Source: a virus
Taxonomy: Duplodnaviria > Heunggongvirae > Uroviricota > Caudoviricetes
Reading direction: 5' to 3' (one strand)
DNA: 64,000 nt
IMG/VR virus record: IMGVR_UViG_3300031134_000466
The notes under the pieces: generated by a model
The model's database searches: none
Seen by the model: only the letters and a program-made list of their open reading frames with translations
What the model was told of the DNA's origin: nothing
Position numbers and translations under genes: made by a program
Shown: positions 2,847-44,685 of the stretch, piece after piece
Layout of the letters: each line of letters opens with the position of its first letter
Numbering within the stretch: the first letter of the stretch is position 1

Positions 2847-4235
2847 ATGCTTACCCTGAATAAGGTTTTGCAGTCCTCCAAAGCTGCTATTGACTTAGCT
2901 TCCATTATGGTTGGTGTCATCATCATTGGTTTAATCGGTGGAGTCATCTCAGCAACAGTTTTTGCTGTTATCCCTTGGTCCCAGGACAAAGCAGCAAAAC
3001 AGCAGTTAGAATCAATTCACACAGCTGAGAACGCTTTCTACGGCTTTAGTGCTGATGCGTCGACTACGCTGAAAAATAAAACAAACAGCACCCGCGAACT
3101 CAGGAATACATTTGCCGATTCAGCTGAACTGGCTTCCAACGCACTCCTGACATCAAACCCTAACTATTGTGTTGTACCTACTGCTGATGGCAAAGACTAT
3201 CACGCTTATTCAAAGTCTGGTTCAGGTAAGACTTTCTATGCTTTGAACAGCAACAAGCAAGCACAAGTTTTCACAGGCGCTTTCCCCTGTGTCGTTGACG
3301 CCTCTACTGGTGTTGTGGGTGTCGACCCAGCTGTAGACAACGGAACCTCCCCTGTAGGTGTTACTCCAGGAAGCACTGGCGGAACAGGTGGCGGAACAAC
3401 TGCACCTGGCACTGGTTCTGGTGGCACTGGCGGAGGAACAACTCCTACGGCTCCTGTGAATCCTCTTGCTTTGACCATCAACTGCCCTGCAAATATCAAT
3501 AAATATGCAACCCCAACAATTGATTTTGTCGGTAAAGCCCTTCTCAGCGATGGAGTAGAAAAAACTTACACGTCTCCTTCTAACCCAATTTTTGATGTCA
3601 CCCCAGGCAAAACTTACACTATTCAGATGACTGGTACTTACAGTCAGATGAGCAGTATTAGTGTAGCCAGTGCCCCTTGCTTGGTAAGTGTCGATTCATG
3701 GGGAGATACTTCTAAGTTCAACAACATCGCAAACGGTTTTTACGGTTCTACTAACTTAGTATCAGTTCCAGATACATTACCTCCGCTTATTACTACTTTA
3801 GCAAACACCTTTTACGGGGCAACTAAGTTCAACAGTCCCAACGTATCCAAATGGGACACCAGTAACGTAACAAAGATGAACAACACTTTCCGAGAAAATA
3901 CTGTGTTCAACCAAGATTTGAGCAAGTGGAACACCAGTAACGTAACAGATATGGTTGGTATGTTCTGGTTAGCTAATGCTTTCAATAGCAACATTAGTTC
4001 ATGGGACACCAGTAAAGTGACTGATATGTTTGCAATGTTCTACAAAGTGACATCGTTCAACCAAGACATCAGTGGATGGAACACCGTCAATGTGACTCGT
4101 ATGGCATCTATGTTTGATGGGGCTAAAGCTTTCAAGCAAAACCTGAGTGGATGGAATGTAGCGAAAGTTACAAATTATTCCAGCTTCAATACGAACGGCT
4201 TGTTGGTTGCAGCTGAACTTCCTAAGTTCAAGTAA
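2847..4235 (+). CDS. Pilin/pseudopilin-like anchored surface protein, paralog B, with C-terminal BspA/DUF285-type repeats
   Basis: Same N-terminal 170-aa module as paralog A; Gly-rich linker GSTGGTGGGTT...; about six repeats of the x(SKW/SSW/SGW)(D/N)TSNVT(x)M..MF..A..FNQDIS type typical of the Mycoplasma/BspA-like DUF285 LRR family. Confidence 0.55.
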   Translation: MLTLNKVLQSSKAAIDLASIMVGVIIIGLIGGVISATVFAVIPWSQDKAAKQQLESIHTAENAFYGFSADASTTLKNKTNSTRELRNTFADSAELASNALLTSNPNYCVVPTADGKDYHAYSKSGSGKTFYALNSNKQAQVFTGAFPCVVDASTGVVGVDPAVDNGTSPVGVTPGSTGGTGGGTTAPGTGSGGTGGGTTPTAPVNPLALTINCPANINKYATPTIDFVGKALLSDGVEKTYTSPSNPIFDVTPGKTYTIQMTGTYSQMSSISVASAPCLVSVDSWGDTSKFNNIANGFYGSTNLVSVPDTLPPLITTLANTFYGATKFNSPNVSKWDTSNVTKMNNTFRENTVFNQDLSKWNTSNVTDMVGMFWLANAFNSNISSWDTSKVTDMFAMFYKVTSFNQDISGWNTVNVTRMASMFDGAKAFKQNLSGWNVAKVTNYSSFNTNGLLVAAELPKFK

Positions 4236-5148: not shown

Positions 5149-5838
5149 TTAAGAACGCACAGCGATAGGGTTCAGTAAACCGTCAGTAGTTGGTGCCACT
5201 GGAGGGTTCTGCTCATCCCGTTCGGAAGAATACTTATTGGCGTTATCCATGAAGTCTTGGAAGGTTGGTTCTGAGAAAGCCATGCATGTTTGAGTTGCTC
5301 CCCATTGACTGAAAGCAATCAAACGACCAGAAGGCATGTCAGCATCAGCTGGCCAACTCAGAACAAGTAGCTTATCTTCATGAGTGTCATTCCATTTGTC
5401 AGCAAAGTCTCGAACGAACTCATACCCATCATCAGGGTAGTTAGTGGAAGTCCAAATAACTTTGTGACCTTCCCATTCAGCACGAAGAATCTCTTCGTTA
5501 CTGTAAGGATTACCTCGTGGTTCGATGCTCTCTATAGAGTCAGCGTCAAACGGAGCGGGTGACATGTACCCGTAAGCAGGGATAATCATTGGATGGCGGG
5601 GAACTTCTTCAGTGTAGTCTTCAGGAATGGTCCCGTACTGACCGTCCTTAGGGCTGAACACGAAAGTGTCACCACACTGGGTCAGGATACCGTTAGATGC
5701 GGGCGGAACACTGATACTGCCATAAGCGCTGTTCTGCTCAAGATTAGCTGAAGGTTGACTCAACGCTCCGAAAGCAAGCATAGAAACACCTGCCAGCAGA
5801 AAGCCAGACAAGATAAGTTTAGTTCCACGGTATAGCAT
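5149..5838 (-). CDS. Secreted protein of unknown function
   Basis: N-terminal signal peptide-like hydrophobic segment LILSGFLLAGVSMLAFGALS; no recognisable catalytic motif. Confidence 0.45.
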   Translation of the reverse strand: MLYRGTKLILSGFLLAGVSMLAFGALSQPSANLEQNSAYGSISVPPASNGILTQCGDTFVFSPKDGQYGTIPEDYTEEVPRHPMIIPAYGYMSPAPFDADSIESIEPRGNPYSNEEILRAEWEGHKVIWTSTNYPDDGYEFVRDFADKWNDTHEDKLLVLSWPADADMPSGRLIAFSQWGATQTCMAFSEPTFQDFMDNANKYSSERDEQNPPVAPTTDGLLNPIAVRS

Positions 5839-5887
5839 GATGACGTACTTATCGGCTTACACGTATAACCAGCCTATAATAGAGGTT

Positions 5888-18429: not shown

Positions 18430-21147
18430 ATGGCCACCCTCATCGGCGTATCAGGAAAAATTGCGTCAGGTAAAGATTACTTGACTGACAAGCTTGTAAA
18501 CGAACTGAAACGTCTTGGTTTTACCATCGACTACACAGCCTTCGCTGCACCCCTGAAGCAGGAACTCAACGAAATCATCTCTCTGATTCGAGCTTTCCCT
18601 GAACAGGATGAACTGACTCTTTCTTTCTCCATCGCTCGTAATCTGGACATCAACTACGATGATGCTCTTCTGATTGCTACTAATCTGAGAACAGAAGTGC
18701 TTGCAGATGAAACTCTCAACGGTTACTCACGAACAGTCAAAATTCGTGAATCTCTTCAGTATCTTGGTACAGAGATTCGCAGGAAGCAGCGTCCTGAATA
18801 CTGGACTGACTTGTTCTTGAACTTCGTCAACAATTCAGAAACAGATTTCATTTTCGTTTCAGATGCACGTTTTCCTAATGAAATGGACACGGTTGTCGAC
18901 AATCAAGGTGTTGCTCTACGTCTTGACATTCCAGAAGAAGTTCTTGCAGAGCGTCGAAACAAGCGTGACGGCATCAAATACACTGATGAGCAGTTGAATC
19001 ATATCTCAGAAACTGCACTGGATGATTACACCAAATTTGACATGATGATTGGTGTGCAGTTCAACGAACGTGAAATCGTAGAGAATATCCTGAAAAAAGT
19101 TGAACGACTTCAGGAACTTCCTGCAAAAGCTTCTCGCGTCCTGAAAGCCAAAATCGCAGAGCATACACCTTCAGTGTCAGATAAGAAAGATGTTTACCCA
19201 GAGGTGAATTTACCTGAAGGCCAGTACAAAGTGTTGTCTTTGTTTGCAGGTGCAGGTGGATTAGATTTAGGTTTTGAGTTAGCTGGATTAGAAGCAGTTC
19301 ACGGTAAAGAAAAAGTGGACGCTGCTTACAAAGACAAAAAAGCATTTGACGAGCTCCGCAAAGAGAACCTCATTCACACGGTCTACGTAAATGACAACTT
19401 CAAAGATGCAATAGCTTCCTACCGTCAGAACTTTCCTGAAACGTTTATTGACGAACGAGATATCAAAAAAATCAGCAGCTTCCCTGATGCAGACCTTCTG
19501 TTAGGTGGATTCCCTTGCTTCCCTAAAGGAACAGGTGTAGCTACAGAGACAGGTTACAAAAACATTGAAGATGTCGAGAAAGGTGATTTTGTTCTCACTC
19601 ATGAAGGTCGTTACCGTGAAGTAACAGACACCATGACACGCAATGTGAACAAATCAGCCACTCTACATGCTTACGGTTCTCTTCCTTTGGTCTCAACGGT
19701 GAATCATCCTTACTGGGTGAAAGAAACTGTCGATTCTGAACCTAAATGGGTTCATGCTGAGAACATTCAGCCAGGTTGGTTTGTGTCTCATCCAATCAGC
19801 ACATTCAGTACAGATGAAGTAACCGAAAAAGAAGCCAAGTTTGCTTACTTAGCCGGCGTCTTCGCTCAGTGTGGTACAAAAACTTTGAACGACGAGCACA
19901 AGCCAAGCTATCTCACTCCTTACAATGATGAGGAGTTCCTGGCTTTGCTGGCTGAAATTGATGCTGTCTGTTCAAAAGAAGGCAAAAACGTCATCGTCCA
20001 CAGTGAACAGCTGAACAAGATGATGAAATTGTTCGGAACTACCAAATGGAACAAAGTCATTCCTGAAGAGGTCCACCAGAAACCACGAGCTTGGCAGAAA
20101 GCTTTCCTTGACGGCTTCCTGTTCCACAACTCTGACCAGGAAGTGCACAGCAAGAACTTGGCTGTTGGCGTGGCTCGAATTATTCGTAGTTTGAACCCTA
20201 CACAGGATGTTATCGTGTCCTCACCCAAATACAGTTCCTGGATTGTAACTGCAACTGACACTACCGTAGCTCATCATGATGACAACTATGTATGGGTTCC
20301 TGTGGAGCGTTTGCAAGTAAGAAACGAAATGGGAGTACTTCCTGTTTACGATATTACTGTAGCCGAAGACGAATCATTCGTAGCAGATGGATTTGTAGTT
20401 CACAACTGCCCTGGCTTCTCAGCAGCAGGTCTTCGCATGTTAGATGACCCTCGCAACTTCCTGTACCTGCATTTCGTACGAGCTGTTGTTGACGCTCAAC
20501 CAAAGATTTTCGTAGCAGAAAACGTAAAAGGTCTACTCACTCATGGTCAAGGTGAAGCTTTCAACCAGATAGTCGAAGACTTTGCAGCAGCAGGTTACAC
20601 CATCTACTACAAGCTGATGAAAGCAATTCAGCATGGTGTACCTCAGATGAGAGAGCGATTGATTATTGTTGGTGTGCGAAACGACATTGATTTTGAATAC
20701 CAGCATCCTGCTGCCACTCATGGTGAAGGTCTACTTCCATACAAAACTCAAAGAGACGCTTTCTACGATTTGAGGGACCTGAACGATGAACACTACGAAG
20801 GAGACTTCTCTTCTCGCTACCGTTCCAGAAGGTTCAAACTGGACTGGGATGTACCGTCAAAGACCATTTTGGCAACAGGGCGGCACCTGCCTTTGCACCC
20901 TGACGGAGTGCCTCAGGAGAAGCTGGAGCAGGACTTGTGGAGTTTAGACGCTGCAGACCGTAGATTCACTGTAAGAGAAGCTGCACGAATCCAGACATTC
21001 CCTGACTGGTATGATTTCGTGACAACCTCTCGCGGAACAACCAACACAGTCCTGGAGAAACAGTACCGTCAGATAGGTAACGCTGTTCCTGTCGAACTGG
21101 GACGAGTTGTTGCTGAACCTATTGTTCAGTTCCTGAAAAGTCTGTAA
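18430..21147 (+). CDS. Fusion protein: T4 gp1-like dNMP kinase (N-terminal) + DNA (cytosine-5)-methyltransferase interrupted by an intein
   Basis: N-term GVSGKIASGKDY...AAPLKQEL and SDARFPNEMD match dNMP-kinase P-loop and DxR motifs; MTase motif I FAGAGG, motif IV GGFP-C...PGFSAAG (split by intein), ENV (motif VI), QMRER (VIII), GNAVPV (X); one continuous frame. Confidence 0.85.
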   Translation: MATLIGVSGKIASGKDYLTDKLVNELKRLGFTIDYTAFAAPLKQELNEIISLIRAFPEQDELTLSFSIARNLDINYDDALLIATNLRTEVLADETLNGYSRTVKIRESLQYLGTEIRRKQRPEYWTDLFLNFVNNSETDFIFVSDARFPNEMDTVVDNQGVALRLDIPEEVLAERRNKRDGIKYTDEQLNHISETALDDYTKFDMMIGVQFNEREIVENILKKVERLQELPAKASRVLKAKIAEHTPSVSDKKDVYPEVNLPEGQYKVLSLFAGAGGLDLGFELAGLEAVHGKEKVDAAYKDKKAFDELRKENLIHTVYVNDNFKDAIASYRQNFPETFIDERDIKKISSFPDADLLLGGFPCFPKGTGVATETGYKNIEDVEKGDFVLTHEGRYREVTDTMTRNVNKSATLHAYGSLPLVSTVNHPYWVKETVDSEPKWVHAENIQPGWFVSHPISTFSTDEVTEKEAKFAYLAGVFAQCGTKTLNDEHKPSYLTPYNDEEFLALLAEIDAVCSKEGKNVIVHSEQLNKMMKLFGTTKWNKVIPEEVHQKPRAWQKAFLDGFLFHNSDQEVHSKNLAVGVARIIRSLNPTQDVIVSSPKYSSWIVTATDTTVAHHDDNYVWVPVERLQVRNEMGVLPVYDITVAEDESFVADGFVVHNCPGFSAAGLRMLDDPRNFLYLHFVRAVVDAQPKIFVAENVKGLLTHGQGEAFNQIVEDFAAAGYTIYYKLMKAIQHGVPQMRERLIIVGVRNDIDFEYQHPAATHGEGLLPYKTQRDAFYDLRDLNDEHYEGDFSSRYRSRRFKLDWDVPSKTILATGRHLPLHPDGVPQEKLEQDLWSLDAADRRFTVREAARIQTFPDWYDFVTTSRGTTNTVLEKQYRQIGNAVPVELGRVVAEPIVQFLKSL
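19516..20406 (+). mobile_element. Intein (297 aa) with LAGLIDADG homing-endonuclease motifs, inserted at the catalytic Pro-Cys of MTase motif IV
   Basis: Starts with Cys (CFPKGTGVATETG...GDFVL block A), block B TVNH, two dodecapeptide motifs (YLAGVFAQCGT; FLDGFLFHNSD), ends VVHN followed by +1 Cys; excision restores GGFPCPGFSAAG. Confidence 0.8.
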
Positions 21148-21762
21148 TCAGTTGATGGCGTGAATGCGGTTCAACGGCCACATCACGAACTTAGGCTGGC
21201 CCAGGATGCTATCCACTGGCACGAAAGGGTCATTAGGGTGGTACCTGGAGTCAGCTGAGTTCAACCGGTTGTCGCCCAGGACAAACACTTGCCCTGCTGG
21301 GACAGTGTAAGAGAATTCTTTGTTGACATCGTTCACACCATCTTTGATGTAATTCTCATTAAGTTCCTCGCCATTGAGAAGAAGCTTCCCATCATCAGAG
21401 CAGCAAGAGATGGTGTCACCACCAACAGCTATCACACGTTTCACAAACACTGTTCCAGCAGGTTCACCCCAAGATGCTGGAGGGTTGAAAACGACAACAG
21501 TGCCACGGTCAGGAGCCTGCCTGTTGTCCAAAGCAGGAACAGATACCATGTAATCCTTGACTTGCAAAGTATTCGTCATGGAGGAAGAAGGGACAACATA
21601 GCTGTCCACGAAGAATAGATTCAGAATGATTCCTACTACCAGACCAAAGATGATCGTGTCGAGGAAACCAATTTTGTGTTTTTTCTTAGAACGAGTTACA
21701 ACCTCAGAGGAGGGGGTAATGTCGTCGTCCATCAAAATTCTTCCTATCATTACAGTAACCAT
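21148..21762 (-). CDS. Signal peptidase I (S26 family)
   Basis: N-terminal TM anchor, catalytic Ser box SSSMTNTL, Lys box VFVKRVIAVGGD, box D/E GDNRLNSADSRY. Confidence 0.8.
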   Translation of the reverse strand: MVTVMIGRILMDDDITPSSEVVTRSKKKHKIGFLDTIIFGLVVGIILNLFFVDSYVVPSSSMTNTLQVKDYMVSVPALDNRQAPDRGTVVVFNPPASWGEPAGTVFVKRVIAVGGDTISCCSDDGKLLLNGEELNENYIKDGVNDVNKEFSYTVPAGQVFVLGDNRLNSADSRYHPNDPFVPVDSILGQPKFVMWPLNRIHAIN

Positions 21763-21881
21763 TCTGGGTACTGGATCGTTCTATATGTCTGCCGTGCTGA
21801 TATTAGAAACAGCAGCAAAGTGGGCTAAATCAGAAAAACTGTAGAATAGCTACAGTGTAACACAACAAATTAGGGTTTTCA

Positions 21882-23186
21882 TTGATTTCAACACTACGAC
21901 ACTCCCAGAAATTTCAAGACAGCTTTGTTGTCTGGATTTTTGTACTTCTTTTCGCCGGTCAGGGTTTCAGGAACCTAATCGGCCTCATCTGTTACGGCAC
22001 TATCAGCCTGGTGACTGTAAGCGTAGCCGTTTGGCTCTTTTGGAATACCTGGAGTAAACGCCGAACCCCGTTTTTGCTGGGTGCTTTTGTAACTTTAGCA
22101 GCTCTGTCCACAATTTGGTCCACTTACCGTCTGGAAACATTCATAGCCAGTATCATTCTGGCGGCCACCAGCCTCATAGGACTTTTAGTTGCCTCAGCTT
22201 ACAAATGGAAAAAACTGATAGTCCTTTTAGGTTACGGACTGCAAATCTGCGTGGTCGGCAGTTTAGTCTTTGAAACAATCGTCGCCACTGTGTTTAGGAG
22301 ACCAGTTCTACCTGTCTTCATGGAATTTGTGGGCCTTACTGACATTGAGAAAAATTCTGGTGTGTTGAACTGGTCAGAGAACAATTTGTTTGCAGGTGGT
22401 CCAATTCAGGGTTTCATGGGTAACAGAAACTTGTTAGGTTTTGTTGCATTGCTTCTAATTGTTGTGTCAGTAGTGACTTTGTTGGAGAAACTCACAAACA
22501 AATGGGTGAGCCTTAGCTGGATAGCTGTAGGGTTAGGAACACATTTTCTGACAGTCTCAGCTACCATCTCTTTGGCTCTGCTGGCTGTTGTCATCATCGT
22601 TGCTGGTGCGATGTTTATACGATTTACGCCAGAAAAGTTCAGACGGATAACATCCTGGTCCTTCGTGGGACTCTGTATCGTTCTTGGTGTTGCTGCGTTG
22701 AAGAACTACGACAAACTGTTTGGTGTTTTTGACCGTGACCCGAACCTTACTAACCGCACTGAAATCTGGAAACGAGTGGCTGATCTGGCTTTGCAGAAAC
22801 CTGAAGGTTGGGGATGGGTTAGTTACTGGCCTGTATGGAAAGAGCCTTTCAACGGAATACTCACATTAGGTGGAGTGCCTGTAGCTCATGCCCATAATGC
22901 ATATTTGGATGTATGGTTCCAACTGGGTGTAGTTGGCGTCATTCTTCTAGCAGCTATGACTTTGTACATTTTAGGAAGCTCTTGGCGTTTAGTGGAACAT
23001 GCAGGAAGGAGTTCAAGCTTCTTACCTCTTGGTTTGTTCCTTCTTGGTGGTTGCTTGTTCATTCAAGCTCTTACAGAATCCCGTCTGCTACTTGAGGGTA
23101 ATTGGATGCTGTTGACTGTGTTGCTTGTGTATACGCCATCTGCTTTCCGAAAAACAAACCTGAAGGCGTTAGAGCCGATATCGTAA
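21882..23186 (+). CDS. O-antigen ligase/Wzy_C-family polytopic membrane protein (PglL/PilO-like O-oligosaccharyltransferase candidate)
   Basis: About 10 TM helices and a periplasmic-loop motif AHAHNAYLDVWFQLGVVG matching the Wzy_C H-N-x-x-L signature. Confidence 0.55.
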   Translation: MISTLRHSQKFQDSFVVWIFVLLFAGQGFRNLIGLICYGTISLVTVSVAVWLFWNTWSKRRTPFLLGAFVTLAALSTIWSTYRLETFIASIILAATSLIGLLVASAYKWKKLIVLLGYGLQICVVGSLVFETIVATVFRRPVLPVFMEFVGLTDIEKNSGVLNWSENNLFAGGPIQGFMGNRNLLGFVALLLIVVSVVTLLEKLTNKWVSLSWIAVGLGTHFLTVSATISLALLAVVIIVAGAMFIRFTPEKFRRITSWSFVGLCIVLGVAALKNYDKLFGVFDRDPNLTNRTEIWKRVADLALQKPEGWGWVSYWPVWKEPFNGILTLGGVPVAHAHNAYLDVWFQLGVVGVILLAAMTLYILGSSWRLVEHAGRSSSFLPLGLFLLGGCLFIQALTESRLLLEGNWMLLTVLLVYTPSAFRKTNLKALEPIS

Positions 23187-23188: not shown

Positions 23189-23380
23189 ATGACTACGAAT
23201 GACCTTGCTCCCATGCAACTACCTCCTTTTAAAGAGGGGGAAATGAAGAAAGTTGCTTTAGGGTTCCGTGAAGTTGACGGTAAAGTGGAAGTGACAGTGA
23301 CTTCACACAATATGAACGATGATATTAACGAAATTGCTGTGTTCTTGTCATTTGCGTTGGAAAAAATGCTCGAAGACTGA
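23189..23380 (+). CDS. Small hypothetical protein (63 aa)
   Basis: ATG 2 nt after upstream stop; longer in-frame ORF from 23102 overlaps the previous gene. Confidence 0.3.
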   Translation: MTTNDLAPMQLPPFKEGEMKKVALGFREVDGKVEVTVTSHNMNDDINEIAVFLSFALEKMLED

Positions 23381-23433: not shown

Positions 23434-24246
23434 ATGTGCAAACGCAAACCATACCCTCGTTGCAGCTACCATGCTCGCATCAAACTTGAAGCTGCAGAAA
23501 AGTCTGGTGATCTTGAACGCATCAAGCTTGCAAGAAGGAACTATTTCACTTCATTAGCTGGTATTGCTGACCTCAAAGCTCAGGGTAAAGATGCATTAGC
23601 TGCAAAATATGAGACTCGTAGAGCAAATCTCATTGCTCAAGCTGAACGTGAGACTAACCTCCGCAAGACACCCCTGGTTTTGGCGTTGGATGTAGACAAC
23701 ACCAGTGGTGACTTCACAGAATCCATTCGTAACCATGTCATGAAGACACAAGGACTTACTCCTGAACAGGCTGAAACACTTCTTCCTAGCCCTCCAACTC
23801 ACTACTCTTTCGTAGACTCAGGCTGGTTCACTGACGTTAACTCATTCCTGGATGCTTTCCATTCAGCGGAAGAGAATGGTGTTTACTCCAAGATGAAAGC
23901 TTTTGACGGAGTAAGCAAGACTCTTCGCACTTTGGTCAGTAATCGTGACGTTGAAGTTCGTGTTGTGACGGCCCGTGGTAACAGATGGAATGAAGAGACC
24001 CGTCAGTGGTTGCGTCGTCATCGTATTCCTTTCACTTCCATCACTCACACTGAGGACAAAGAGAAAGTCCCAGGTATCGATGTGTACATTGATGACTCTG
24101 ACAAGCAGATTAACACTCTGCAGAAGAACGGTAAGACAGTTATTGCGTTCGAGAATGCATACAACGCAACTGTTCCTTCTAAGTATCGTGTAAAGAAGTG
24201 GAAAGAAGTGCCGGCAGTTCTGAAACTCATCGCACAAGCCAAATAA
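23434..24246 (+). CDS. HAD-superfamily phosphatase carrying the N-terminal Cys-KP-RCS-H module shared with the three ADP-ribosyltransferases
   Basis: N-term MCKRKPYPRCSYHA; HAD motif I LDVDNT, motif II VVTARG, motif IV YIDDSD. Confidence 0.7.
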   Translation: MCKRKPYPRCSYHARIKLEAAEKSGDLERIKLARRNYFTSLAGIADLKAQGKDALAAKYETRRANLIAQAERETNLRKTPLVLALDVDNTSGDFTESIRNHVMKTQGLTPEQAETLLPSPPTHYSFVDSGWFTDVNSFLDAFHSAEENGVYSKMKAFDGVSKTLRTLVSNRDVEVRVVTARGNRWNEETRQWLRRHRIPFTSITHTEDKEKVPGIDVYIDDSDKQINTLQKNGKTVIAFENAYNATVPSKYRVKKWKEVPAVLKLIAQAK

Positions 24247-24260: not shown

Positions 24261-24300
24261 GGCGGTCCAGGATGCTAATTGTCCTGGGCCGCCCTTGTTT
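24261..24300 (+). terminator. 12-bp stem-loop (one G.U) followed by T-tract
   Basis: ggcggtccagga ... tcctgggccgcc cttgtttt. Confidence 0.5.
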
Positions 24301-24391: not shown

Positions 24392-26083
24392 ATGTCTGCT
24401 GGCAGCACGCACCCGACTATTCAAAACTACACAAAAATACGAGCAGCTTTTAGCTCCTCACAAGCCGCTATCGACTTAGCTTCCATCATGGTGGGTGTCA
24501 TCGTAATCGGACTTATTGGTGGAGTAATCTCTGCCACAGTATTCGCTATCATTCCTTGGGCACAGGACAAAGCAGCGAAAGCATCTCTCTCCTCAGTACA
24601 CACAGCAGAATCAGCATATGCTGGGTTCAGTGTTGGTGATGACGGAGAGAAGAAACAAACTTTTGGTAACTACGACGACTTGAAAGCTGAACATGGAGGT
24701 TTGCTTCAAGAATCTGAACGTCTAATAGTTTCCACCGGAACAAACAACAAAGACTGCTATGTTGCTGTCATTACCTCAGAGACAGGAAACCGTTTCTGGA
24801 TTGACAACAAGATCAGTGCACCTCGCATGTACCAAGAAGGTGACCAGTCAGAGTGTCTGAACCTTGAAGACATGTTCGGTGATGACAACGGTGGTATTGG
24901 ATACAACTCCTCCCTTGATGGTACTTACTTCGAAGGGCAAGGTTTTGCAGCTGTTGTTCACATTCGTAACAGTGCAATCAACTATGGTGTTGAACCAGAC
25001 CCAACTTGTGAGCCTACTGACCCAGCCACACAGGTAACACAGGTAAAAGCTTACTTAGACAGTGAAGAAATTGAAATTGCTGGTAGCTGGGAATACATGC
25101 AATCATCAGACGGAATTCAGACAGCAGTAGGCATCCAAACCACTAACGGATACATTGGTGCTACCACAGAGGAAGCTCAAACTTTCGCTGAAAGAGGACA
25201 AGTAATTTTCTTACCAGCTGGTTGTGCTGATTCAATCACCATCAACGTATCAGGAACATCCACTCCTCCAGGTGGTGACGACGGCGGTGGTGACCAACCT
25301 GTTGAACTATGCAGCAAGTACAATAACATGTTCACTGACGCCCAAACAACCAGTGAAACCACTGGAACTACTTTCTATGTTGACCCAAGCTGCAACACCA
25401 GCATGACTGCAATGTTCACATCCTTTGAGTCGATGTTCCAAACAATGGGACAGCCAACACTTACCGCTCGTACTGACGGTTGCTGGTCAGAACAGGGAAC
25501 TTATAAGAAAGTTGCCTGTGACCCAACAGGACAAGCTTACTACTACAGCCCAGGAAGCATGGAACAGTTCTGGACTTCAGCTAACGGAACAACAGTTGAA
25601 TTGTACCTCAACGGTTCAAGTACCCCATTCTTCTCCCAGGCATCAAACACTCCAAGTGAGTTCTACTACGAAGTTCCTCGTGAAGATAGGACAGATTCCT
25701 ACACTCAGAGCTCATACAACGCTGACGCTCCAACTGTCGGAATTGATGTCACAAGTAGCTACAGAATGACCAACTTCTACCGTGCAGCTAAACCAGCTGC
25801 AGGAACAACTTCAAACTCTTGCTTGGATGAACTTCAAGCGGGTAAGCTTCCAACCACTTACCAAGGCGAGTATGGTGTAGCTAACTGCCAAGGTGAAGAT
25901 GACTTCCGTATCTATGACTGGGACATCTCAGGTAACTTCGGTAATGCCGATGAAGCAACTTACGAAAACATCAAAACAGTCAGTGAACAAGGCGGTATGG
26001 TCAAGTTCACAACAACAGAAGGTAAAACTTCAACCATCCAGCTGAACCCAGGAGCTTTGAACCCAGAACCACAAGCTTCATAA
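24392..26083 (+). CDS. Pilin/pseudopilin-like anchored surface protein, paralog C, with Cys-rich C-terminal domain
   Basis: SSSQAAIDLASIMVGVIVIGLIGGVISATVFAIIPWAQDKAAK...VHTAESAYAGF matches first 60 aa of paralogs A/B; rest unrelated, at least 10 Cys; ATG 24392 chosen over the longer TTG-initiated ORF at 24311. Confidence 0.55.
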   Translation: MSAGSTHPTIQNYTKIRAAFSSSQAAIDLASIMVGVIVIGLIGGVISATVFAIIPWAQDKAAKASLSSVHTAESAYAGFSVGDDGEKKQTFGNYDDLKAEHGGLLQESERLIVSTGTNNKDCYVAVITSETGNRFWIDNKISAPRMYQEGDQSECLNLEDMFGDDNGGIGYNSSLDGTYFEGQGFAAVVHIRNSAINYGVEPDPTCEPTDPATQVTQVKAYLDSEEIEIAGSWEYMQSSDGIQTAVGIQTTNGYIGATTEEAQTFAERGQVIFLPAGCADSITINVSGTSTPPGGDDGGGDQPVELCSKYNNMFTDAQTTSETTGTTFYVDPSCNTSMTAMFTSFESMFQTMGQPTLTARTDGCWSEQGTYKKVACDPTGQAYYYSPGSMEQFWTSANGTTVELYLNGSSTPFFSQASNTPSEFYYEVPREDRTDSYTQSSYNADAPTVGIDVTSSYRMTNFYRAAKPAAGTTSNSCLDELQAGKLPTTYQGEYGVANCQGEDDFRIYDWDISGNFGNADEATYENIKTVSEQGGMVKFTTTEGKTSTIQLNPGALNPEPQAS

Positions 26084-28538: not shown

Positions 28539-29579
28539 ATGACCACTGCTACTAAATGTGCCAAACCAAAAGGGGTATATTGCCGTTTGCACAACCCTGA
28601 ACCTCGTGGGTATGCTTCTGCATCAGAAGCGTTAAATAAAGCAGAGCAGGACTTCAACAAAGCCAACCCGATCAAATCTTCTTCTCCTGGTGTTTCTTTT
28701 CATAAAAACGGTGAGACTCGCACATTGCACAAAAGTGTTCCAGAGAACATTGCTGACCATATTGCTTTGAATCAAGAACAACTGTCTCACTTGTCAGACA
28801 TGCAGAAGAAAGCTTTGAACGGTTACACCGGCTTTGCTGCAGGTGTTTGCAATAGTGTGTTGTTAGCAAAAGAATTCGCTTATGAGTATTACGAAGATGC
28901 CCCTCTATGGAAAGAAGCCCCAGGAGGAGCGTGTGACTTTGTTTCTCGTGAAGATTTAGTTGACTACATGGAAACAATGGATGGTATCCTTGCTTCCCGC
29001 CAGGAACAATCCCGAGTTCTATACCGTGGTATTCCTATTTACTCAGAACTGCATGACGAGATTGGTAATGGCATAGGTAAAAAGCTGCCTTTCGCTGATG
29101 CTACTGGCTTAGCAGAGGGTTTGAGTGAATATTACAAGCCTGGTACTGTCATTAAGCATGACCATTACTTGTCCACAACAGCATCAGCGTATTATGCAGC
29201 TGACCGTACAGACAATTCCATCGGGACAAAAAAGAGCTATTACGATAGCAATGATGTACCAGTCGGTATTGTCTTTGAGCTGAAAACCAATGCTGGTTTG
29301 GATGTTACAGCTGCAGCTCGTCATCATTCTTATGAACGTGAAGTGGTGTTACCTCGTGAAACTTACTTCAAAGTTGTCAACGTGGACGTGAATCCACAAG
29401 CTTATGACACTGTTTCAGGATTCGATACGCTCAACCATCCTGAGGAGCGAGAGCAGAAAACTTTCACTCGCTTAGCTGCTGTTGTTCAGATGGTCGAAGT
29501 AGACAAAAACGGCAAAGAAATAACAGGTACTGCACCTCATAATCCAGAGAGAAAAATCAGCGACATCATTCCTGGATGA
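28539..29579 (+). CDS. Mono-ADP-ribosyltransferase (R-S-E class) with N-terminal Cys-KP-C-H module
   Basis: N-term KCAKPKGVYCRLH; Arg motif VLYRGI, Ser-Thr motif YLSTTAS, catalytic YEREVVLPRETYFKVV (E-x-E). Confidence 0.7.
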   Translation: MTTATKCAKPKGVYCRLHNPEPRGYASASEALNKAEQDFNKANPIKSSSPGVSFHKNGETRTLHKSVPENIADHIALNQEQLSHLSDMQKKALNGYTGFAAGVCNSVLLAKEFAYEYYEDAPLWKEAPGGACDFVSREDLVDYMETMDGILASRQEQSRVLYRGIPIYSELHDEIGNGIGKKLPFADATGLAEGLSEYYKPGTVIKHDHYLSTTASAYYAADRTDNSIGTKKSYYDSNDVPVGIVFELKTNAGLDVTAAARHHSYEREVVLPRETYFKVVNVDVNPQAYDTVSGFDTLNHPEEREQKTFTRLAAVVQMVEVDKNGKEITGTAPHNPERKISDIIPG

Positions 29580-34403: not shown

Positions 34404-35891
34404 TTAGCCTACGAAGGTTACTCCAGTAGTGGTTCTGTCATACTGTGTCCATGTTGTTCCGTTGGATGGTCCATAGAAATGGGTAGTCAAACTACCTGTC
34501 TTTGTATCAAACTCCAGAGTTCGTACAGGGTTGGTGGTGTTTGAATGGAATGTTCCCAGGTAAGAAACAATCTTGTTGCCGTTCACTCCCACATCTTCAC
34601 GGTAACCAGCTTCACCGACATGGCCAGATAAGACAACTTTGATGTTTGGGTACTGCTTGACAAGGTTGTCATACACATACTGAGCTGAGTTACTTCCATA
34701 ACTGGCTGACTGGTCAATACTTCCATCACCGTTCAAATACGAATGAGTGGAAACAATAACATTGTAGTCAGGATGTGCAGCTACGACAGTTTTTGCCCAG
34801 TCAACGACCTCAGTGCGTGGCCAGAGTTCCAGAGTCAAAACCAACCACTTTTTGTCAGCAGCGTTGAAAGTCTGGTAAGCATTGTCAACTTTTCCAGTTT
34901 CGAAGGTTGTGATACCTGGGTAACGTGAAGGACTGAAGTAGCTATTGAAAGTGGTGGTGTTTCGCACTAAAGTGCGAGTGTTCTTAGGGTCAGCAGCAGA
35001 ACCGCCAACACCTACAGCAGCTGTATCATGGTTTCCGATGGTAAGAGAATTCTGGATTTTGTTGTCATCTAACACCTTCATGGCTTTGGATGCAACAGCG
35101 TACTGTTCGTGATTTGGAGTATCCCAATTGACGACATCACCAGTATGGTTCACATATCGCAAATCTAAAGCGTTTTTGTTATCAACAAGCCATTGTGTAC
35201 GGTTCACAAATCGAGTGTCTGTTCCAACTTCTTGTTGGGTGTCTGGAATCACAGCCATTGTGAACTTGCCGTCAGCATCAGCAGGATTTACTGGCGGAGT
35301 TGTTGGTGGTGTAACAACAGGGGAAGGTTTAGCTCCGTAGAATGAGATTCCTTCGGCTGCCCAGCCGGCTGTTGTCAGGGCAGTTCTTTCGGCTTCAGTT
35401 GTCGCATAACGATGCTTACCACTTTTTTGGAAACGGTAGACTGGTTGGCTGCCAGAAAGGTTTTTGGTTGAAGCGTAGAAATTGATTCCTTGCTCTGTGT
35501 AACCATATTTACTTTGGGCAACGGCAAGTTCATTAGAGGAAGAAGATTTTGCTATCCAGATGAAATCGCCGTTCTTGTGAAGACGGTAGACTGGCACTAA
35601 CCCTGTTTTTTGGTCGTGGTTAGCTTTGAAAACAATCCCTTTGGTTTCTGTGAAGCCATAGCTGTTTTTAGCACTGTCAATTTCTTTTGAGTTGACAGTG
35701 AGTAGATTAGCTTGGCTTTTAGGGTTGATTGACTGATAAACATCTGTCGTCATTGAAGACAGAATAGATGCATCAGAGGGAGCGGTCGCAGCTGAAGCGG
35801 ATGTAGCTGTAGCGAAAGGTAGAACAAGTGTAGCTAATAGTACGACGCCTAAAGTCCTAAATCGGACAGGTTGCGTTTGATTGTGGTTCAC
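34404..35891 (-). CDS. Secreted metallophosphoesterase with N-terminal tandem ~45-aa repeats
   Basis: Signal peptide; repeats PVYR(L/F)xKxG....Y....E........GW..EGI.FY x2-3; C-terminal AVIPDTQQE, NHTGDVVN, GNHD, STHSY, GHVGE phosphoesterase motifs. Confidence 0.7.
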   Translation of the reverse strand: MNHNQTQPVRFRTLGVVLLATLVLPFATATSASAATAPSDASILSSMTTDVYQSINPKSQANLLTVNSKEIDSAKNSYGFTETKGIVFKANHDQKTGLVPVYRLHKNGDFIWIAKSSSSNELAVAQSKYGYTEQGINFYASTKNLSGSQPVYRFQKSGKHRYATTEAERTALTTAGWAAEGISFYGAKPSPVVTPPTTPPVNPADADGKFTMAVIPDTQQEVGTDTRFVNRTQWLVDNKNALDLRYVNHTGDVVNWDTPNHEQYAVASKAMKVLDDNKIQNSLTIGNHDTAAVGVGGSAADPKNTRTLVRNTTTFNSYFSPSRYPGITTFETGKVDNAYQTFNAADKKWLVLTLELWPRTEVVDWAKTVVAAHPDYNVIVSTHSYLNGDGSIDQSASYGSNSAQYVYDNLVKQYPNIKVVLSGHVGEAGYREDVGVNGNKIVSYLGTFHSNTTNPVRTLEFDTKTGSLTTHFYGPSNGTTWTQYDRTTTGVTFVG

Positions 35892-41293: not shown

Positions 41294-42706
41294 ATGCCAA
41301 TTGGTCAAAAAATTGTAGGAGTAGCTGTAGCAGCTACAGTTTCATTAAGTGCGGTAGCTTTTGTGGCTTCTCCAGCACTTGCTGATGAGGCAGCTCCTAC
41401 GACAACACAAGACGTTCCTACGGAAGTAGAAACTGGGACTGAGGGAGTTGCTCCAGCAGCTGACCCTGTTGAGGAAGAAGTACCTGCTCCTGAGGTTGCA
41501 GTACCAGAAGAGACTGAACCTGAAGTAGTTGTTCCATCTGAAGAAGCACCAGTAGAAGAAGTACCTACTGAAGAAGCACCTGTTGAAGAAGTTCCTGTCG
41601 AAGAGGTCCCTGCAGAGGAAAATGCTTTGGTAGCAACAACATTTGCTTTGACTTTTGGTGGTGACACATCAACTGTTCCTGAAAACCTGACACTTGAAGT
41701 TCACTATACTTCTTTGGTGAATGATGAAGTGCAGGATAATGTTGTTTACCTAACCCGCGATGTCCCTCCTACTGCCATTGACATCCCTGAAGGTTCTACA
41801 GTTCAGGTTTCAGTAACTGGTTTACCTGACATCGAAAACACAACACTAAACCCAGTTGTTCTGCTCAATGGGAATCCTTTGCCTGCTGATGGTGTTACAT
41901 TAGTGTCTGGTGAAGTGTATGATTTTTCTGTAGCTATTGATGCAGTAACAGAAAACCCTGCACCTTCAGACGCTCCTGCTATTCAGCAGGATGAAGCTCT
42001 TCCTGTTGATGTAGAAAACCTTATTTCTGTAAATGCTGCAGTTGCTTTCCCTGGTGACACTATAACTGTTTCTGCTTCAAGCGTTGCTACTCCTGAATCT
42101 TGGGTTTCAGTATGGCTTCATTCCACTCCTGTGCTTCTCGCTGGTTGGGTTCAGACTGACGTGAATGGAAACATTGATGTCACAATTCCAGCAGGTACCG
42201 AAACTGGTGAACACCGTATTGTTGTGTCTGACGCAGACAACAACATTGTAGGTTGGACAAGCATTCTTGTTGTCAACCAGGATGATGAAGTTATCGTTCC
42301 TGGAGAAGACCCTGAAACCCCTGTAGACCCTGAAACGCCTACAGACCCTACCCTTCCTGTGGACCCTACAACTCCTACTGACCCAGAAGTGCCAGTTACT
42401 CCTACAAACCCAGATGCAGGAGTAACTCCTGAGACTGAACCAGAAACAACTCCTCGTGACCCTTCTTCTGGCGGAGTATCCATCATTCCTGAGGAAGAGT
42501 TCAACACTGGAGGTTACGACAATGATGAGTTGGGTAACGTAACAGACCGTGGTGACCGCTCAGACATTAACACCAGAGCTTTGGCTTACACTGGTTCTGA
42601 CTCCAACTCCACGGTGTTCCTCACCTTCATGGGTGGTCTCATGTTGATTGGTGGTTTCGTCCTCCGCAGACTTCCTCGTCTGCGTGCTGCACGTCGCAAT
42701 AGCTGA
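41294..42706 (+). CDS. Cell-wall-anchored surface protein with LAxTG sorting signal and acidic Pro/Glu/Val repeats
   Basis: Signal peptide; EEAPVEEVPTEEAPVEEVPVEEVPAEE repeats; DPxTPTDP repeats; C-terminal LAYTG + hydrophobic segment + RRLPRLRAARRNS tail. Confidence 0.75.
   Translation: MPIGQKIVGVAVAATVSLSAVAFVASPALADEAAPTTTQDVPTEVETGTEGVAPAADPVEEEVPAPEVAVPEETEPEVVVPSEEAPVEEVPTEEAPVEEVPVEEVPAEENALVATTFALTFGGDTSTVPENLTLEVHYTSLVNDEVQDNVVYLTRDVPPTAIDIPEGSTVQVSVTGLPDIENTTLNPVVLLNGNPLPADGVTLVSGEVYDFSVAIDAVTENPAPSDAPAIQQDEALPVDVENLISVNAAVAFPGDTITVSASSVATPESWVSVWLHSTPVLLAGWVQTDVNGNIDVTIPAGTETGEHRIVVSDADNNIVGWTSILVVNQDDEVIVPGEDPETPVDPETPTDPTLPVDPTTPTDPEVPVTPTNPDAGVTPETEPETTPRDPSSGGVSIIPEEEFNTGGYDNDELGNVTDRGDRSDINTRALAYTGSDSNSTVFLTFMGGLMLIGGFVLRRLPRLRAARRNS
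41527..41625 (+). repeat. Imperfect ~30-nt tandem repeats encoding (E/V)E(A/V)P(V/T)EE
   Basis: gaagaagcaccagtagaagaagtacctact / gaagaagcacctgttgaagaagttcctgtc / gaagaggtccctgcagaggaa. Confidence 0.5.

Positions 42707-42792: not shown

Positions 42793-44685
<1,893 letters not shown>

What the first reader, a model, noticed from the sequence alone, without database searches (positions are those of the whole stretch)
21148..23186. Signal peptidase I and a Wzy_C/PglL-like membrane protein sit between the pilin-like paralogs
A complete S26 signal peptidase (SM, K, GDNR..S.DSR boxes) lies tail-to-tail with a 10-TM protein. That protein carries the O-antigen-ligase/pilin-O-oligosaccharyltransferase signature AHAHNAYLDVW. 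PglL/PilO-type pilin glycosyltransferases belong to this family. The pilin-like paralogs have Ser/Thr/Pro-rich linkers that are typical O-glycosylation targets, plus uncleaved-looking signal anchors. The neighbourhood therefore suggests a self-contained system that processes and glycosylates surface proteins.
Basis: inference. Interest (0 to 1): 0.6.

Follow-up and report, generated by a model that had tools for sequence, protein, structure and literature searches.

The report
Signal peptidase and glycan transferase pair
Two intact cell-envelope enzymes, a type I signal peptidase and a WaaL/PglL-like glycan transferase, form a conserved gene pair in a family of giant phage-like DNA elements of actinobacteria, but the nearby pilin-like proteins are almost certainly cut by a different, dedicated peptidase.

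Summary

The pair occurs in all 10 related low-GC loci examined, from contigs up to 883 kb, and in none of 5 cellular orthologue loci. Both genes are under purifying selection.

The window looks like a huge phage-like element of Micrococcales, but no capsid or terminase gene was seen.

The signal peptidase-to-pilin link fails. The pilin family has prepilin-type signals (Gly at -1 in 118/119). Relatives encode a probable A24 prepilin peptidase, two assembly ATPases, a platform protein and pilin arrays more than 200 kb from the pair. Likelier clients are Sec-type exported proteins in the window.

The transferase's acceptor is unresolved. Cellular orthologues sit in wall-polysaccharide clusters or beside LCP genes. 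Sequence leans weakly towards PglL, and no PglL_A motif was found.

The parts
21148..21762 (-). Type I signal peptidase (S26), 204 aa as the longest ORF. The probable true start is Met11 at 21732 (194 aa). It has one N-terminal membrane anchor (about residues 29-50), catalytic Ser61 (nt 21580-21582) and Lys108 (nt 21439-21441), box E at residues 163-174, and an actinobacterial-type 'CC' motif at 120-121.
   Evidence: PF10502 1.2e-36. TIGR02227 5e-35. PDB signal peptidase I hits 4me8 and 4nv4. Invariant S61/K108/GD.R..S.DSR in A4. dN/dS 0.06-0.07.
21763..21881 (.). 119-nt divergent intergenic region between the two start codons. It could hold a bidirectional promoter, but none was detected by the sigma-70 consensus scan.
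   Evidence: Coordinates. Promoter scan no better than shuffles. The gap is only 18 nt in L022, so no large conserved regulatory element is required.
21882..23186 (+). Wzy_C-family (WaaL/Wzy/PglL superfamily) integral membrane glycan transferase, 434 aa, about 12 helices. Conserved residues include GNRN 180-183, R247, R292, PEGWGW 307-312, H338 (in AHAHNAYLDVW, nt 22884-22916), D343 and E399/E405.
23189..23380 (+). Conserved small ORF of 63 aa, soluble and acidic (motif GEMKK..LGFR.VDGK.E....DDINEI). It starts 2 nt after the Wzy_C stop codon and is present after Wzy_C in every related locus checked. Function unknown.
   Evidence: Sequence. Homologues in L001, L003, L022 and L023. 100% amino-acid identity with dS 0.08-0.11 against L026/L027. 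No Pfam hit.
23434..24246 (+). 5'-deoxynucleotidase (NT5C), the last gene of the probable Wzy_C/small-ORF/NT5C transcription unit. It is a conserved neighbour, not functionally related.
   Evidence: PF06941 2.6e-17. Same position in all related loci.
24261..24293 (+). Terminator-like hairpin (14-bp stem, 9 G-C pairs, T-rich tail) that separates the Wzy_C unit from the third pilin-like paralog.
24392..26083 (+). Pilin-like paralog 3. It is a modular pilin: a prepilin-like N-terminus (..SSQA|AIDLASIMVG..) and a large C-terminal part that ends in ...PEPQAS. It occupies this position only in the window's own subclade.
   Evidence: dN/dS 0.08-0.10.
1636..2751 (+). Pilin-like paralog 1, with a pilin module, a T/P-rich linker and a C-terminal beta-rich module.
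   Evidence: The AF2 model of the N-terminal module has a helix at residues 3-67 followed by beta strands, pLDDT 65.
2847..4235 (+). Pilin-like paralog 2, with a pilin module, a G/T-rich linker and a DUF285 repeat module that could be an adhesin.
   Evidence: PF03382 1.3e-54.
18430..21147 (+). Upstream neighbour that converges on the peptidase: a dNMP-kinase-like N-terminus fused to a C5 cytosine methyltransferase interrupted by a Hint/intein. In relatives the kinase part always precedes the peptidase.
   Evidence: Searches show a kinase-only gene in L003, L022 and L023.
34404..35891 (-). Candidate signal peptidase I client: an exported metallophosphatase/DUF5648 protein with a classical signal peptide ...TATSASA|ATAPSD.
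   Evidence: The cleavage site is inferred by eye.
41294..42706 (+). Candidate signal peptidase I client: an acidic, Pro-rich surface protein with signal peptide ...ASPALA|DEAAP and a C-terminal LAYTG sorting signal plus membrane anchor. LAxTG is the class E sortase motif (established knowledge).
5149..5838 (-). Candidate signal peptidase I client: a 229-aa protein with an N-terminal signal-like segment ...AFGALS|QPSANL.

Best explanation
The interval holds two separate, functional envelope-biogenesis enzymes. They are carried as a fixed divergent gene pair by a family of giant (about 0.64-0.88 Mb contigs), low-GC, phage-like elements associated with Micrococcales actinobacteria.

(1) The signal peptidase. 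It is an actinobacterial-type type I signal peptidase, anchored by one N-terminal helix with its Ser61/Lys108 active site outside the membrane. Most likely it removes Sec-type signal peptides from the element's own exported proteins. This window holds three candidates with small-x-small cleavage sites, one of them an LAYTG sortase substrate. This would supply or boost peptidase capacity in the infected cell (inferred).

(2) The Wzy_C protein. It is a 12-helix WaaL/Wzy/PglL-superfamily enzyme derived from a host-lineage gene. It would take a host-made undecaprenyl-diphosphate-linked glycan at the outer face of the membrane and transfer it to an extracytoplasmic acceptor. The shared catalytic Arg and His are present (shown). 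I commit to the same kind of acceptor as its cellular orthologues, meaning wall or surface glycopolymer assembly. On this reading the element remodels the host surface, for example by masking a receptor or excluding superinfection (inferred).

(3) The pilin-like paralogs. They are modular type IV pilins with prepilin signals. The element's own A24-like prepilin peptidase would cut them and its own type IV filament machinery, encoded elsewhere, would assemble them. They are not signal peptidase I substrates.
For: Gene identity and activity:
- Family scores, catalytic residues and fold for both enzymes.
- Purifying selection: dN/dS 0.03-0.07 at dS 0.25-0.55.

The pair is conserved in the elements only:
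- Present in 10 of 10 element loci, with Wzy_C identity ranging from 45 to 96%.
- Absent from 5 of 5 cellular orthologue loci.

Context of the cellular orthologues:
- In Rathayibacter and Cryobacterium they sit as tandem Wzy_C genes among GT2/GT4 glycosyltransferases, sugar epimerases, and either a Wzm/Wzt ABC exporter or a Wzx-like flippase with GtrA.
- In Demequina-like genomes they sit beside or near a LytR-CpsA-Psr gene.

Pilins are prepilin-type:
- Invariant G|AIDLASIMVG..IPW core.
- In relatives the arrays lie next to two T2SSE genes, one T2SSF gene and a 267-271-aa protein with Peptidase_A24 E=1.9e-4 and the motifs AAVDSK and GSGGDLK.

Sec-type clients and transcription:
- Three candidate exported proteins in the window.
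- A terminator-like hairpin separates the Wzy_C unit from pilin 3.

Phage-like nature of the element:
- RNR, dCMP deaminases, YqaJ exonuclease, MazG, two T4-type RNA ligases plus PNKP, RNase H, PARP, ADP-ribosyltransferases and DnaK.
- The PARP is 40% identical to those of jumbo phages.
- GC is 44-50% in the element loci against 59-67% in the related cellular loci.
- No ribosomal, aminoacyl-tRNA-synthetase or RNA-polymerase family appeared among the Pfam results seen for the window and the annotated related loci. The only tRNAs are a small cluster and one suppressor-like tRNA.
Against: - No substrate was tested for either enzyme.
- The signal-peptide cleavage sites were read by eye. No dedicated predictor was available.
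- The Wzy_C acceptor is unresolved. By sequence the family profile matches a PglL-like oligosaccharyltransferase (9rmk_A, E=1.6e-4) and not the solved WaaL, even at E<=10.
- Monoderm bacteria have no lipid A-core acceptor, and LCP enzymes rather than Wzy_C proteins attach wall polymers to peptidoglycan (established knowledge). A ligase role therefore needs another acceptor.
- No other glycan-synthesis gene was found in the window.
- The tight conservation of the pair could reflect a functional link that I have not identified.
- No capsid, portal or terminase gene was seen, so 'phage' is inferred from gene content only.
Confidence: 0.55

Rival explanations
1. The Wzy_C protein is a protein O-oligosaccharyltransferase of the PglL or TfpO/PilO type. 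It would decorate the element's type IV pilins, or other exported proteins such as the LAYTG protein, with host undecaprenyl-PP-linked glycan. The signal peptidase would act independently on Sec substrates.
For: - The only solved-structure sequence hit of the family profile is a PglL-numbered oligosaccharyltransferase, with R298/P313/G316/G318/H349 aligned to R292/P307/G309/G311/H338 and QRN178-180 aligned to NRN181-183.
- Schulz et al. list G316, G318, Q178 and N180 as conserved in PglL but not in WaaL (PMC3643930).
- The elements encode arrays of pilins, which are the classic substrates.
- 29 of 119 family pilins end in Ser, and their tails are rich in Ala/Pro/Ser/Thr.
- Pilin 3, next to the Wzy_C unit, ends in a conserved C-terminal Ser.
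- Gram-positive S-layer O-oligosaccharyltransferases also carry Wzy_C (PMC2943079 listing; established knowledge).
Against: - No PglL_A (PF15864) or Wzy_C_2 hit even at E<=10.
- Three of the seven PglL-specific residues (H400, E404, P406) could not be matched.
- Cellular orthologues lie in polysaccharide clusters, not next to pilins. No Wzy_C gene lies within 10 kb of the cellular pilin genes sampled.
- In 7 of 10 element loci no pilin is near the gene.
- The excess of C-terminal Ser may simply reflect related paralogs.
Confidence: 0.3
2. One reading: signal peptidase I and the Wzy_C enzyme together form a self-contained system that cleaves and then glycosylates the pilin-like paralogs.
For: - All three gene types occur in the same genomes.
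- One pilin gene lies 1.2 kb downstream in this window.
- The three window paralogs have Ala instead of Gly at -1 and short leaders, so their processing may be atypical.
Against: - The conserved cleavage site lies on the N-terminal, cytoplasmic side of a roughly 30-residue hydrophobic helix. The active site of signal peptidase I is on the outer face of the membrane.
- There is no small-x-small site after the helix (..IPWSQDKAAK).
- A probable dedicated A24 peptidase is encoded beside the pilin arrays.
- The pair persists where no pilin is nearby.
- A terminator-like hairpin separates the units.
Confidence: 0.05
3. The window is not from a mobile element or virus. It is part of the chromosome of a very small-genome cellular organism, and the two genes are its ordinary housekeeping signal peptidase and wall-glycan enzyme.
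For: - Contig sizes cluster at 0.64-0.88 Mb.
- The elements carry DnaK, a ClpB-like protein, a signal peptidase, type IV pilus genes, ABC and other transporters, and NAD synthesis genes.
- No relatives were found in IMG/VR, and no close relative in the phage records.
- No capsid or terminase gene was seen.
Against: - No translation or transcription core family appeared among the Pfam results seen for the window and the annotated related loci.
- The 64-kb window has no tRNA.
- Phage-hallmark sets are present: two Rnl1 plus PNKP, a jumbo-phage-like PARP, several ADP-ribosyltransferases, a YqaJ exonuclease and an intein-bearing methyltransferase.
- L033 has a tRNA cluster with duplicated tRNA-Trp, and L003 has a suppressor-like tRNA.
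Confidence: 0.07

Closest known systems
Bacterial type I signal peptidases of Gram-positive/actinobacterial type (LepB/SipS family, MEROPS S26A)
   Same: Single N-terminal anchor, Ser/Lys dyad, boxes B, D and E. The 'CC..G...NG' segment is shared with actinobacterial enzymes.
   Different: It is encoded on a giant phage-like element. Identity to cellular enzymes is at most about 44%, against 47-97% within the element family. The usual SM.PT and G.PGD prolines are replaced (SMTNT, GVGGD). It is always paired with a Wzy_C gene.
WaaL O-antigen ligase (solved structure 7TPG/7TPJ, Cupriavidus metallidurans)
   Different: No detectable sequence similarity to that WaaL in a profile search. The host lineage is monoderm and has no lipid A-core acceptor.
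PglL and TfpO/PilO pilin and general O-oligosaccharyltransferases
   Same: Wzy_C core with aligned Arg/His. The GxGW and (Q/N)RN motifs are shared with Neisseria-numbered PglL. Pilins are abundant in the same genomes, and some end in Ser.
   Different: No PglL_A motif. At 434 aa it has no extra C-terminal domain, whereas PglL has about 600 aa. It is not adjacent to a pilin gene in most lineages. Cellular orthologues lie in polysaccharide clusters.
Wzy-type polymerases of seroconverting phages (for example Pseudomonas phage D3 and Salmonella phage epsilon15; recalled from established knowledge, not tested here)
   Same: A phage-borne membrane enzyme of the Wzy/WaaL superfamily that acts on host undecaprenyl-linked glycan and changes the cell surface.
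   Different: Those are temperate phages of Gram-negative hosts acting on O-antigen. No sequence relative of this protein was found in 50,697 phage records or in PHROGs.
Modular type IV pilins of Gram-positive bacteria (pilin module fused to an adhesin module; recalled knowledge). This comparison is for the paralogs, not the pair.
   Same: Prepilin-like leader, a long hydrophobic N-terminal helix, a linker, then an extra module: DUF285 in the window and CBM_4_9 in a relative.
   Different: The mature N-terminus is AIDLAS, with Asp at +3 and no Glu at +5. The window copies have Ala at -1. The genes are encoded by a phage-like element.

Membership tests
Type I signal peptidase (S26A) | Family HMM score above the curated cut-off | tested here: met
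   PF10502 126.6 bits (cut-off 22.9). TIGR02227 120.7 bits (cut-off 47).
Type I signal peptidase (S26A) | Catalytic Ser (box B) and Lys (box D), plus box E GDNxxxSxDSR | tested here: met
   S61, K108 and G163-D164-x-R166..S169-x-D171-S172-R173 are invariant in 27 sequences that include cellular enzymes.
Type I signal peptidase (S26A) | N-terminal membrane anchor with the catalytic domain outside | tested here: met
   One hydrophobic segment at about residues 29-50, preceded by RSKKKHK. The orientation is inferred from the positive-inside rule.
Type I signal peptidase (S26A) | Cleaves Sec-type signal peptides after small residues at -3 and -1 | not testable with these tools
   Candidate substrates were identified by eye only.
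Wzy_C superfamily (WaaL/Wzy/PglL) | PF04932 above the gathering score | tested here: met
   62 bits against 31.7.
Wzy_C superfamily (WaaL/Wzy/PglL) | Polytopic fold like WaaL | tested here: met
Wzy_C superfamily (WaaL/Wzy/PglL) | Conserved Arg/Arg/His of the large outer loop (E. coli WaaL R215, R288, H338 = PglL R224, R298, H349; PMC3643930) | tested here: inconclusive
   R292 and H338 align with PglL R298 and H349 and are invariant. The third Arg could be R247 or R182, both at least 90% conserved, but the alignment does not fix which.
PglL-type O-oligosaccharyltransferase | PglL_A motif (PF15864), which separates PglL from WaaL | tested here: not met
   No hit at E<=10.
PglL-type O-oligosaccharyltransferase | PglL-specific residues Q178, N180, G316, G318, H400, E404, P406 (PMC3643930) | tested here: inconclusive
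   N183, G309 and G311 match. Q178 is Asn here. The H400/E404/P406 region is not alignable.
PglL-type O-oligosaccharyltransferase | Gene adjacent to its pilin or other target and outside polysaccharide loci | tested here: inconclusive
   A pilin lies within 1.2 kb in 3 of 10 element loci only. Cellular orthologues lie inside polysaccharide loci.
PglL-type O-oligosaccharyltransferase | Transfers glycan to Ser/Thr of a protein | not testable with these tools
   Needs an expression experiment with mass spectrometry.
TfpO/PilO-type pilin glycosyltransferase | Gene immediately downstream of, and co-transcribed with, a pilin that ends in Ser/Thr (recalled knowledge) | tested here: not met
   The Wzy_C gene is upstream of pilin 3, separated from it by two genes and a terminator-like hairpin. 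Pilin 3 does end in Ser.
Type IV pilin (for the paralogs) | Class III signal: short charged leader, Gly at -1, then a hydrophobic helix of about 20-30 residues | tested here: met
   For the family: Gly at -1 in 118 of 119 members, median leader 25 aa, invariant AIDLASIMVG..IPW. The three window copies have Ala at -1.
Type IV pilin (for the paralogs) | Glu at +5 of the mature protein | tested here: not met
   The mature N-terminus is A-I-D-L-A-S, with Asp at +3 and Ala at +5.
Type IV pilin (for the paralogs) | Genes linked to an assembly ATPase, a platform protein and a prepilin peptidase | tested here: met
   In relatives L020 and L033: two T2SSE, one T2SSF, an A24-like protein, then a pilin array. 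This locus is not within the 64-kb window.
Type IV pilin (for the paralogs) | Pilin fold (long helix packed on a beta sheet) | tested here: inconclusive
   The model has a helix at residues 3-67 plus strands, but pLDDT is 65. The best Foldseek hit is a type IV pilin at E=1.0, which is not significant.

The most novel reading that the evidence does not exclude
A giant virus-like element of Micrococcales equips the infected cell with its own surface-protein pathway. The pathway would comprise a type IV filament built from dozens of element-encoded modular pilins, a private signal peptidase I for its Sec-exported proteins, and a PglL/TfpO-like enzyme that O-glycosylates those pilins or other exported proteins with host wall glycan. 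This would be a virus-encoded protein O-oligosaccharyltransferase working in a monoderm host.
Probability: 0.2. Interest if true: 0.8.

Novelty: new member of a known kind. Interest (0 to 1): 0.42.

Why it matters
Each enzyme is an ordinary member of a well-known family, so the finding itself is modest. The carrier and the arrangement are what matter.

- The pair is fixed in a family of 0.64-0.88 Mb phage-like elements.
- The family has no relatives in IMG/VR and no close relative in GenBank phage records.
- The Wzy_C protein has no match in PHROGs.
- If these elements are phages, they show how far a virus can take over host envelope biogenesis: signal-peptide processing, surface-glycan transfer and a complete type IV filament system.
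- The pair also gives two easily testable enzymes for asking what such elements do to the surface of the infected cell.

Tried and rejected
- Nucleotide search of the interval against phage records: no match.
- Protein search of Wzy_C against phage records: no match.
- Signal peptidase hits in that collection are mostly short, unannotated records that look like host contamination, so I did not use them as a phage precedent.
- IMG/VR scans with the Wzy_C protein, the Wzy_C alignment and the pilin alignment: no relatives.
- Exact-sequence look-ups of the window's Wzy_C and of P0001: not on record.
- PHROGs on 20 window proteins: nothing structural. The only informative hits were a DnaK-like family (phrog_22485, identified as DnaK from the matches) and a DNA-repair family.
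- Foldseek on the pilin model: not significant.
- Promoter consensus scan of the divergent gap: no better than shuffles.
- PF13425, PF15864 and PF11846: not hit at E<=10.
- Literature searches for a phage-encoded signal peptidase or O-antigen ligase in huge phages: no papers.
- The published 841-kb phage BF3 has 55% GC and a different predicted host group, so it does not look related. I made no sequence comparison.
- Signal peptidase I cleaving the pilins at A|AIDLAS or after the helix: rejected on membrane topology and on the lack of a suitable site.
Full report
**Observation**

The ORF at 21148-21762 on the minus strand (204 aa) scores 126.6 bits on Pfam Peptidase_S26 (E=1.2e-36) and 120.7 bits on NCBIfam TIGR02227, signal peptidase I. 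It matches solved bacterial signal peptidases.

In a 27-sequence alignment with element and cellular homologues, Ser61 (SSSMTNTL), Lys108 (VKRVIAVGGD) and the box E residues (GDNRLNSADSRY) are invariant. One hydrophobic anchor precedes the catalytic domain. Homologues indicate Met11 as the probable start.

The ORF at 21882-23186 on the plus strand (434 aa) scores 62 bits on Pfam Wzy_C (E=7.4e-17) and on nothing else, even at E<=10. AHAHNAYLDVW lies at residues 335-345 and fits H[NSQ]x9Gxx[GTY].

The genes are head-to-head with a 119-nt gap, not tail-to-tail. The peptidase is tail-to-tail with the upstream dNMP-kinase/Dcm/intein gene.

Compared with two relatives about 96% identical in Wzy_C, dN/dS is 0.06-0.07 for the peptidase and 0.03-0.04 for Wzy_C, at dS 0.25-0.55. 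Both genes are therefore maintained by selection.

**What carries the genes**

The window (43-48% GC, with one 2-kb bin at 50% and one at 41%) encodes:
- an SNF2 helicase, the RNR small subunit, two dCMP deaminases, a YqaJ+RNase T exonuclease, MazG and NT5C;
- a WGR-PARP and several ADP-ribosyltransferase-like proteins;
- a Band 7 protein, DnaK, RNase H and NucS;
- two T4-type RNA ligases with a PNKP;
- NAD-synthase-like and NMNAT-like proteins.

It has no tRNA. The PARP is 40% identical to those of jumbo Xanthomonas and Stenotrophomonas phages.

Close homologues of the peptidase, of Wzy_C and of the pilins lie on metagenomic contigs of 638, 782, 789, 821, 828, 858, 879, 880 and 883 kb. These have similar low GC.

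None of the Pfam results I saw for the window or the annotated related loci shows a ribosomal, aminoacyl-tRNA-synthetase or RNA-polymerase family. L033 has a tRNA cluster with duplicated tRNA-Trp, and L003 has a suppressor-like tRNA.

I read this as a huge phage or phage-like element. No capsid or terminase gene was seen, so this is inference. The family is absent from IMG/VR and has no close relative in GenBank phage records.

Several features point to Micrococcales as the host lineage:
- The nearest cellular Wzy_C homologues are in Demequina and Microbacteriaceae.
- The pilin family also occurs in Microbacteriaceae chromosomes.
- The peptidase shares the 'CC' segment of actinobacterial enzymes.
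- The window has NucS and an LAYTG sorting signal.

**Is the pair more than a coincidence?**

The order dNMP kinase(+), S26(-), Wzy_C(+), small ORF(+), NT5C(+), then PARP a few genes on, recurs in the window and in L001, L003, L022, L023, L026, L027, L028, L029 and L031. That is 10 of 10 element loci, with Wzy_C identity from 45 to 96%. The upstream flank is rearranged among them.

The 63-aa ORF at 23189-23380 starts 2 nt after the Wzy_C stop and is conserved everywhere.

None of the five cellular orthologue loci has an adjacent S26 gene.

The pair is therefore a fixed feature of the element family. It is embedded in a conserved block of unrelated nucleotide-metabolism genes, so conservation alone does not prove that the two enzymes work together.

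**The Wzy_C protein**

By sequence, the family profile hits only one solved chain, 9rmk_A 'Oligosaccharyltransferase' (E=1.6e-4). Its numbering matches Neisseria PglL: R298, P313, G316, G318 and H349 align with R292, P307, G309, G311 and H338 here, and QRN178-180 aligns with NRN181-183.

Schulz et al. state that WaaL and PglL cannot be separated by BLAST. They list G316, G318, Q178 and N180 among residues conserved in PglL but not in WaaL, and they introduced the PglL_A model PF15864 (PMC3643930). This protein does not hit PF15864. The sequence therefore leans weakly towards PglL without meeting its marker.

Cellular orthologues tell a different story:
- In Rathayibacter and Cryobacterium they are tandem Wzy_C genes inside wall-polysaccharide clusters. 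These contain GT2/GT4 enzymes, epimerases, and either Wzm/Wzt or a flippase with GtrA.
- In Demequina-like genomes they lie beside or near an LCP gene at a housekeeping site.

I commit to glycopolymer assembly on host-made undecaprenyl-linked glycan as the most likely activity. I keep protein O-glycosylation as a serious rival.

**The pilin-like paralogs**

The three window genes share about 165 N-terminal residues. They belong to a large family found mostly on the same giant contigs. JGI names many members PulG-type pseudopilins.

Among 119 family members:
- the median leader is 25 aa;
- 118 have Gly at -1;
- the following AIDLASIMVG.I.IG.IGGVI.AT.FA.IPW.Q..AAK segment is essentially invariant.

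On the 638-kb contig, about 200 kb from its S26/Wzy_C pair, lie two T2SSE ATPases, a T2SSF protein and a 271-aa membrane protein, followed by at least 11 tandem pilin genes. The membrane protein has a near-full-length Peptidase_A24 match (E=1.9e-4, below the gathering score) and the motifs AAVDSK and GSGGDLK.

The window's nearest relative (789 kb) has the same locus about 240 kb from its pair.

These are therefore prepilin-type substrates with their own probable peptidase. The cleavage site lies on the cytoplasmic side of the anchor, out of reach of a type I signal peptidase.

The window copies are modular, with a pilin module, a linker and an extra domain such as DUF285. They have Ala at -1.

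The fold test was inconclusive.

A pilin gene lies near the pair only in the window's own subclade (window, L026, L027). A terminator-like hairpin at 24261-24293 separates it from the Wzy_C unit.

**What the signal peptidase most likely does**

The window encodes proteins with classical signal peptides:
- 34404-35891(-): ...SASA|ATAP;
- 41294-42706(+): ...PALA|DEAAP, with a C-terminal LAYTG sorting signal;
- 5149-5838(-)...GALS|QPS.

These are the natural clients. The cleavage sites were read by eye. An element-encoded peptidase would secure their processing during takeover of the host. This step is inferred.

**Verdict**

Each gene is a new member of a known family in an unusual carrier. The more striking facts lie around the finding. 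These are the size of the element family, with contigs up to 883 kb against a published record of 841,704 bp, and its complete type IV filament locus.

Noticed in passing
related contigs: L028 (883,042 bp), L031 (878,612 bp), L001 (880,409 bp), L027/L033 (788,683 bp), L003/L020 (637,770 bp): The element family assembles into contigs of 0.64-0.88 Mb. A 2025 preprint calls an 841,704-bp genome the largest known phage (10.1101/2025.01.14.633092). If these contigs are phage genomes, some exceed that record. I could not check completeness, circularity or structural genes. The family has no relatives in IMG/VR and no close relative in GenBank phage records.
   Followed up: partly
L020 1-20552 and L033 1-20564: These loci hold a full type IV filament locus on a phage-like element: two T2SSE ATPases, a T2SSF platform protein, a probable A24 prepilin peptidase, then at least 11 (L020) or at least 5 (L033) tandem pilin genes with identical N-termini. 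Some of the pilins are 300-360 aa, and one carries CBM_4_9. In L033 a tRNA cluster (Arg, Trp, Trp, Phe) follows.
   Followed up: partly
window 18430-21147 (+): This gene fuses a dNMP-kinase-like domain to a C5 cytosine methyltransferase that is split by a Hint/intein with an inserted domain. Relatives L003, L022 and L023 have the kinase alone (225-230 aa). L001 has a 553-aa product matching the kinase and methyltransferase parts, apparently without the intein.
   Followed up: partly
window 26372-27676, 28539-29579, 30500-31465, 51758-52729: There is a WGR+PARP protein 40% identical to those of jumbo Xanthomonas and Stenotrophomonas phages. There are also three ADP-ribosyltransferase-like proteins, one of them assigned only by paralogy. 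Several share an N-terminal segment with the NT5C gene.
   Followed up: partly
window 39328-40449, 54122-55363, 50774-51706: Two T4 Rnl1-type RNA ligases (41% identical to each other) and a polynucleotide kinase-phosphatase together form a tRNA-repair set typical of phages.
   Followed up: no
window 56409-57374, 62265-63158, 58101-59624: Two NAD-synthase-like paralogs and a cytidylyltransferase-like (NMNAT-like) protein suggest an element-encoded NAD supply alongside the NAD-consuming PARP and ADP-ribosyltransferases.
   Followed up: no
window 41294-42706 (+): This acidic, Pro/Glu-rich exported protein ends in LAYTG followed by a hydrophobic anchor and an Arg-rich tail. It is a sortase (class E type) substrate encoded by the element, and no sortase gene was seen in the window.
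   Followed up: no
window 42826-44685 (+); L022 start: The window encodes a full-length DnaK (58-60% identical to Firmicutes-type DnaK sequences present in the phage records, and 47-52% to those of metagenomic huge phages). L022 encodes a ClpB-like AAA+ protein.
   Followed up: no
L003 6984-7057 (-): ARAGORN calls a tRNA with anticodon CTA (reported as tRNA-Pyl), which looks like an amber suppressor. Genes in the window read normally with code 11, so there is no sign of recoding here.
   Followed up: no
window vs L026/L027: Envelope and host-interaction genes diverge faster than their neighbours. Amino-acid identity is 92% for pilin 3, 95-96% for the peptidase, 96% for Wzy_C and 94.5-95% for one ADP-ribosyltransferase, against 99-100% for RNR, the exonuclease, MazG, NT5C and PARP. 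All have dN/dS of about 0.10 or lower.
   Followed up: yes
proteins P0241-P0360 (pilin family); window 24392-26083: 29 of 119 family pilins end in Ser, often as ...W(D/T).TVS, and their last 25 residues are 50% Ala/Pro/Ser/Thr. Pilin 3 of the window ends in a Ser that is conserved in L026 and L027. This recalls pilins that TfpO glycosylates on a C-terminal Ser, but it may only reflect related paralogs.
   Followed up: partly
L009-L019 (Leifsonia sp. Leaf264, Frigoribacterium, Curtobacterium; GC 59-66%): The same pilin family, with the same AIDLASIM core, occurs in chromosomes of cultured Microbacteriaceae. There are at least 8 copies in Leifsonia sp. Leaf264, 7 of them on one 701-kb contig. 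One of those loci also holds a homologue of window gene 33577-34143, and another holds a PNKP-like gene.
   Followed up: partly
window 5837-8191, 8246-8998, 36527-38231, 49520-50176: Other cell-like genes are present: an ABC ATPase with a 12-helix permease, a TerF-like vWA protein, an ArsP_1 permease paired with a DUF1980 protein, and the mismatch endonuclease NucS.
   Followed up: no
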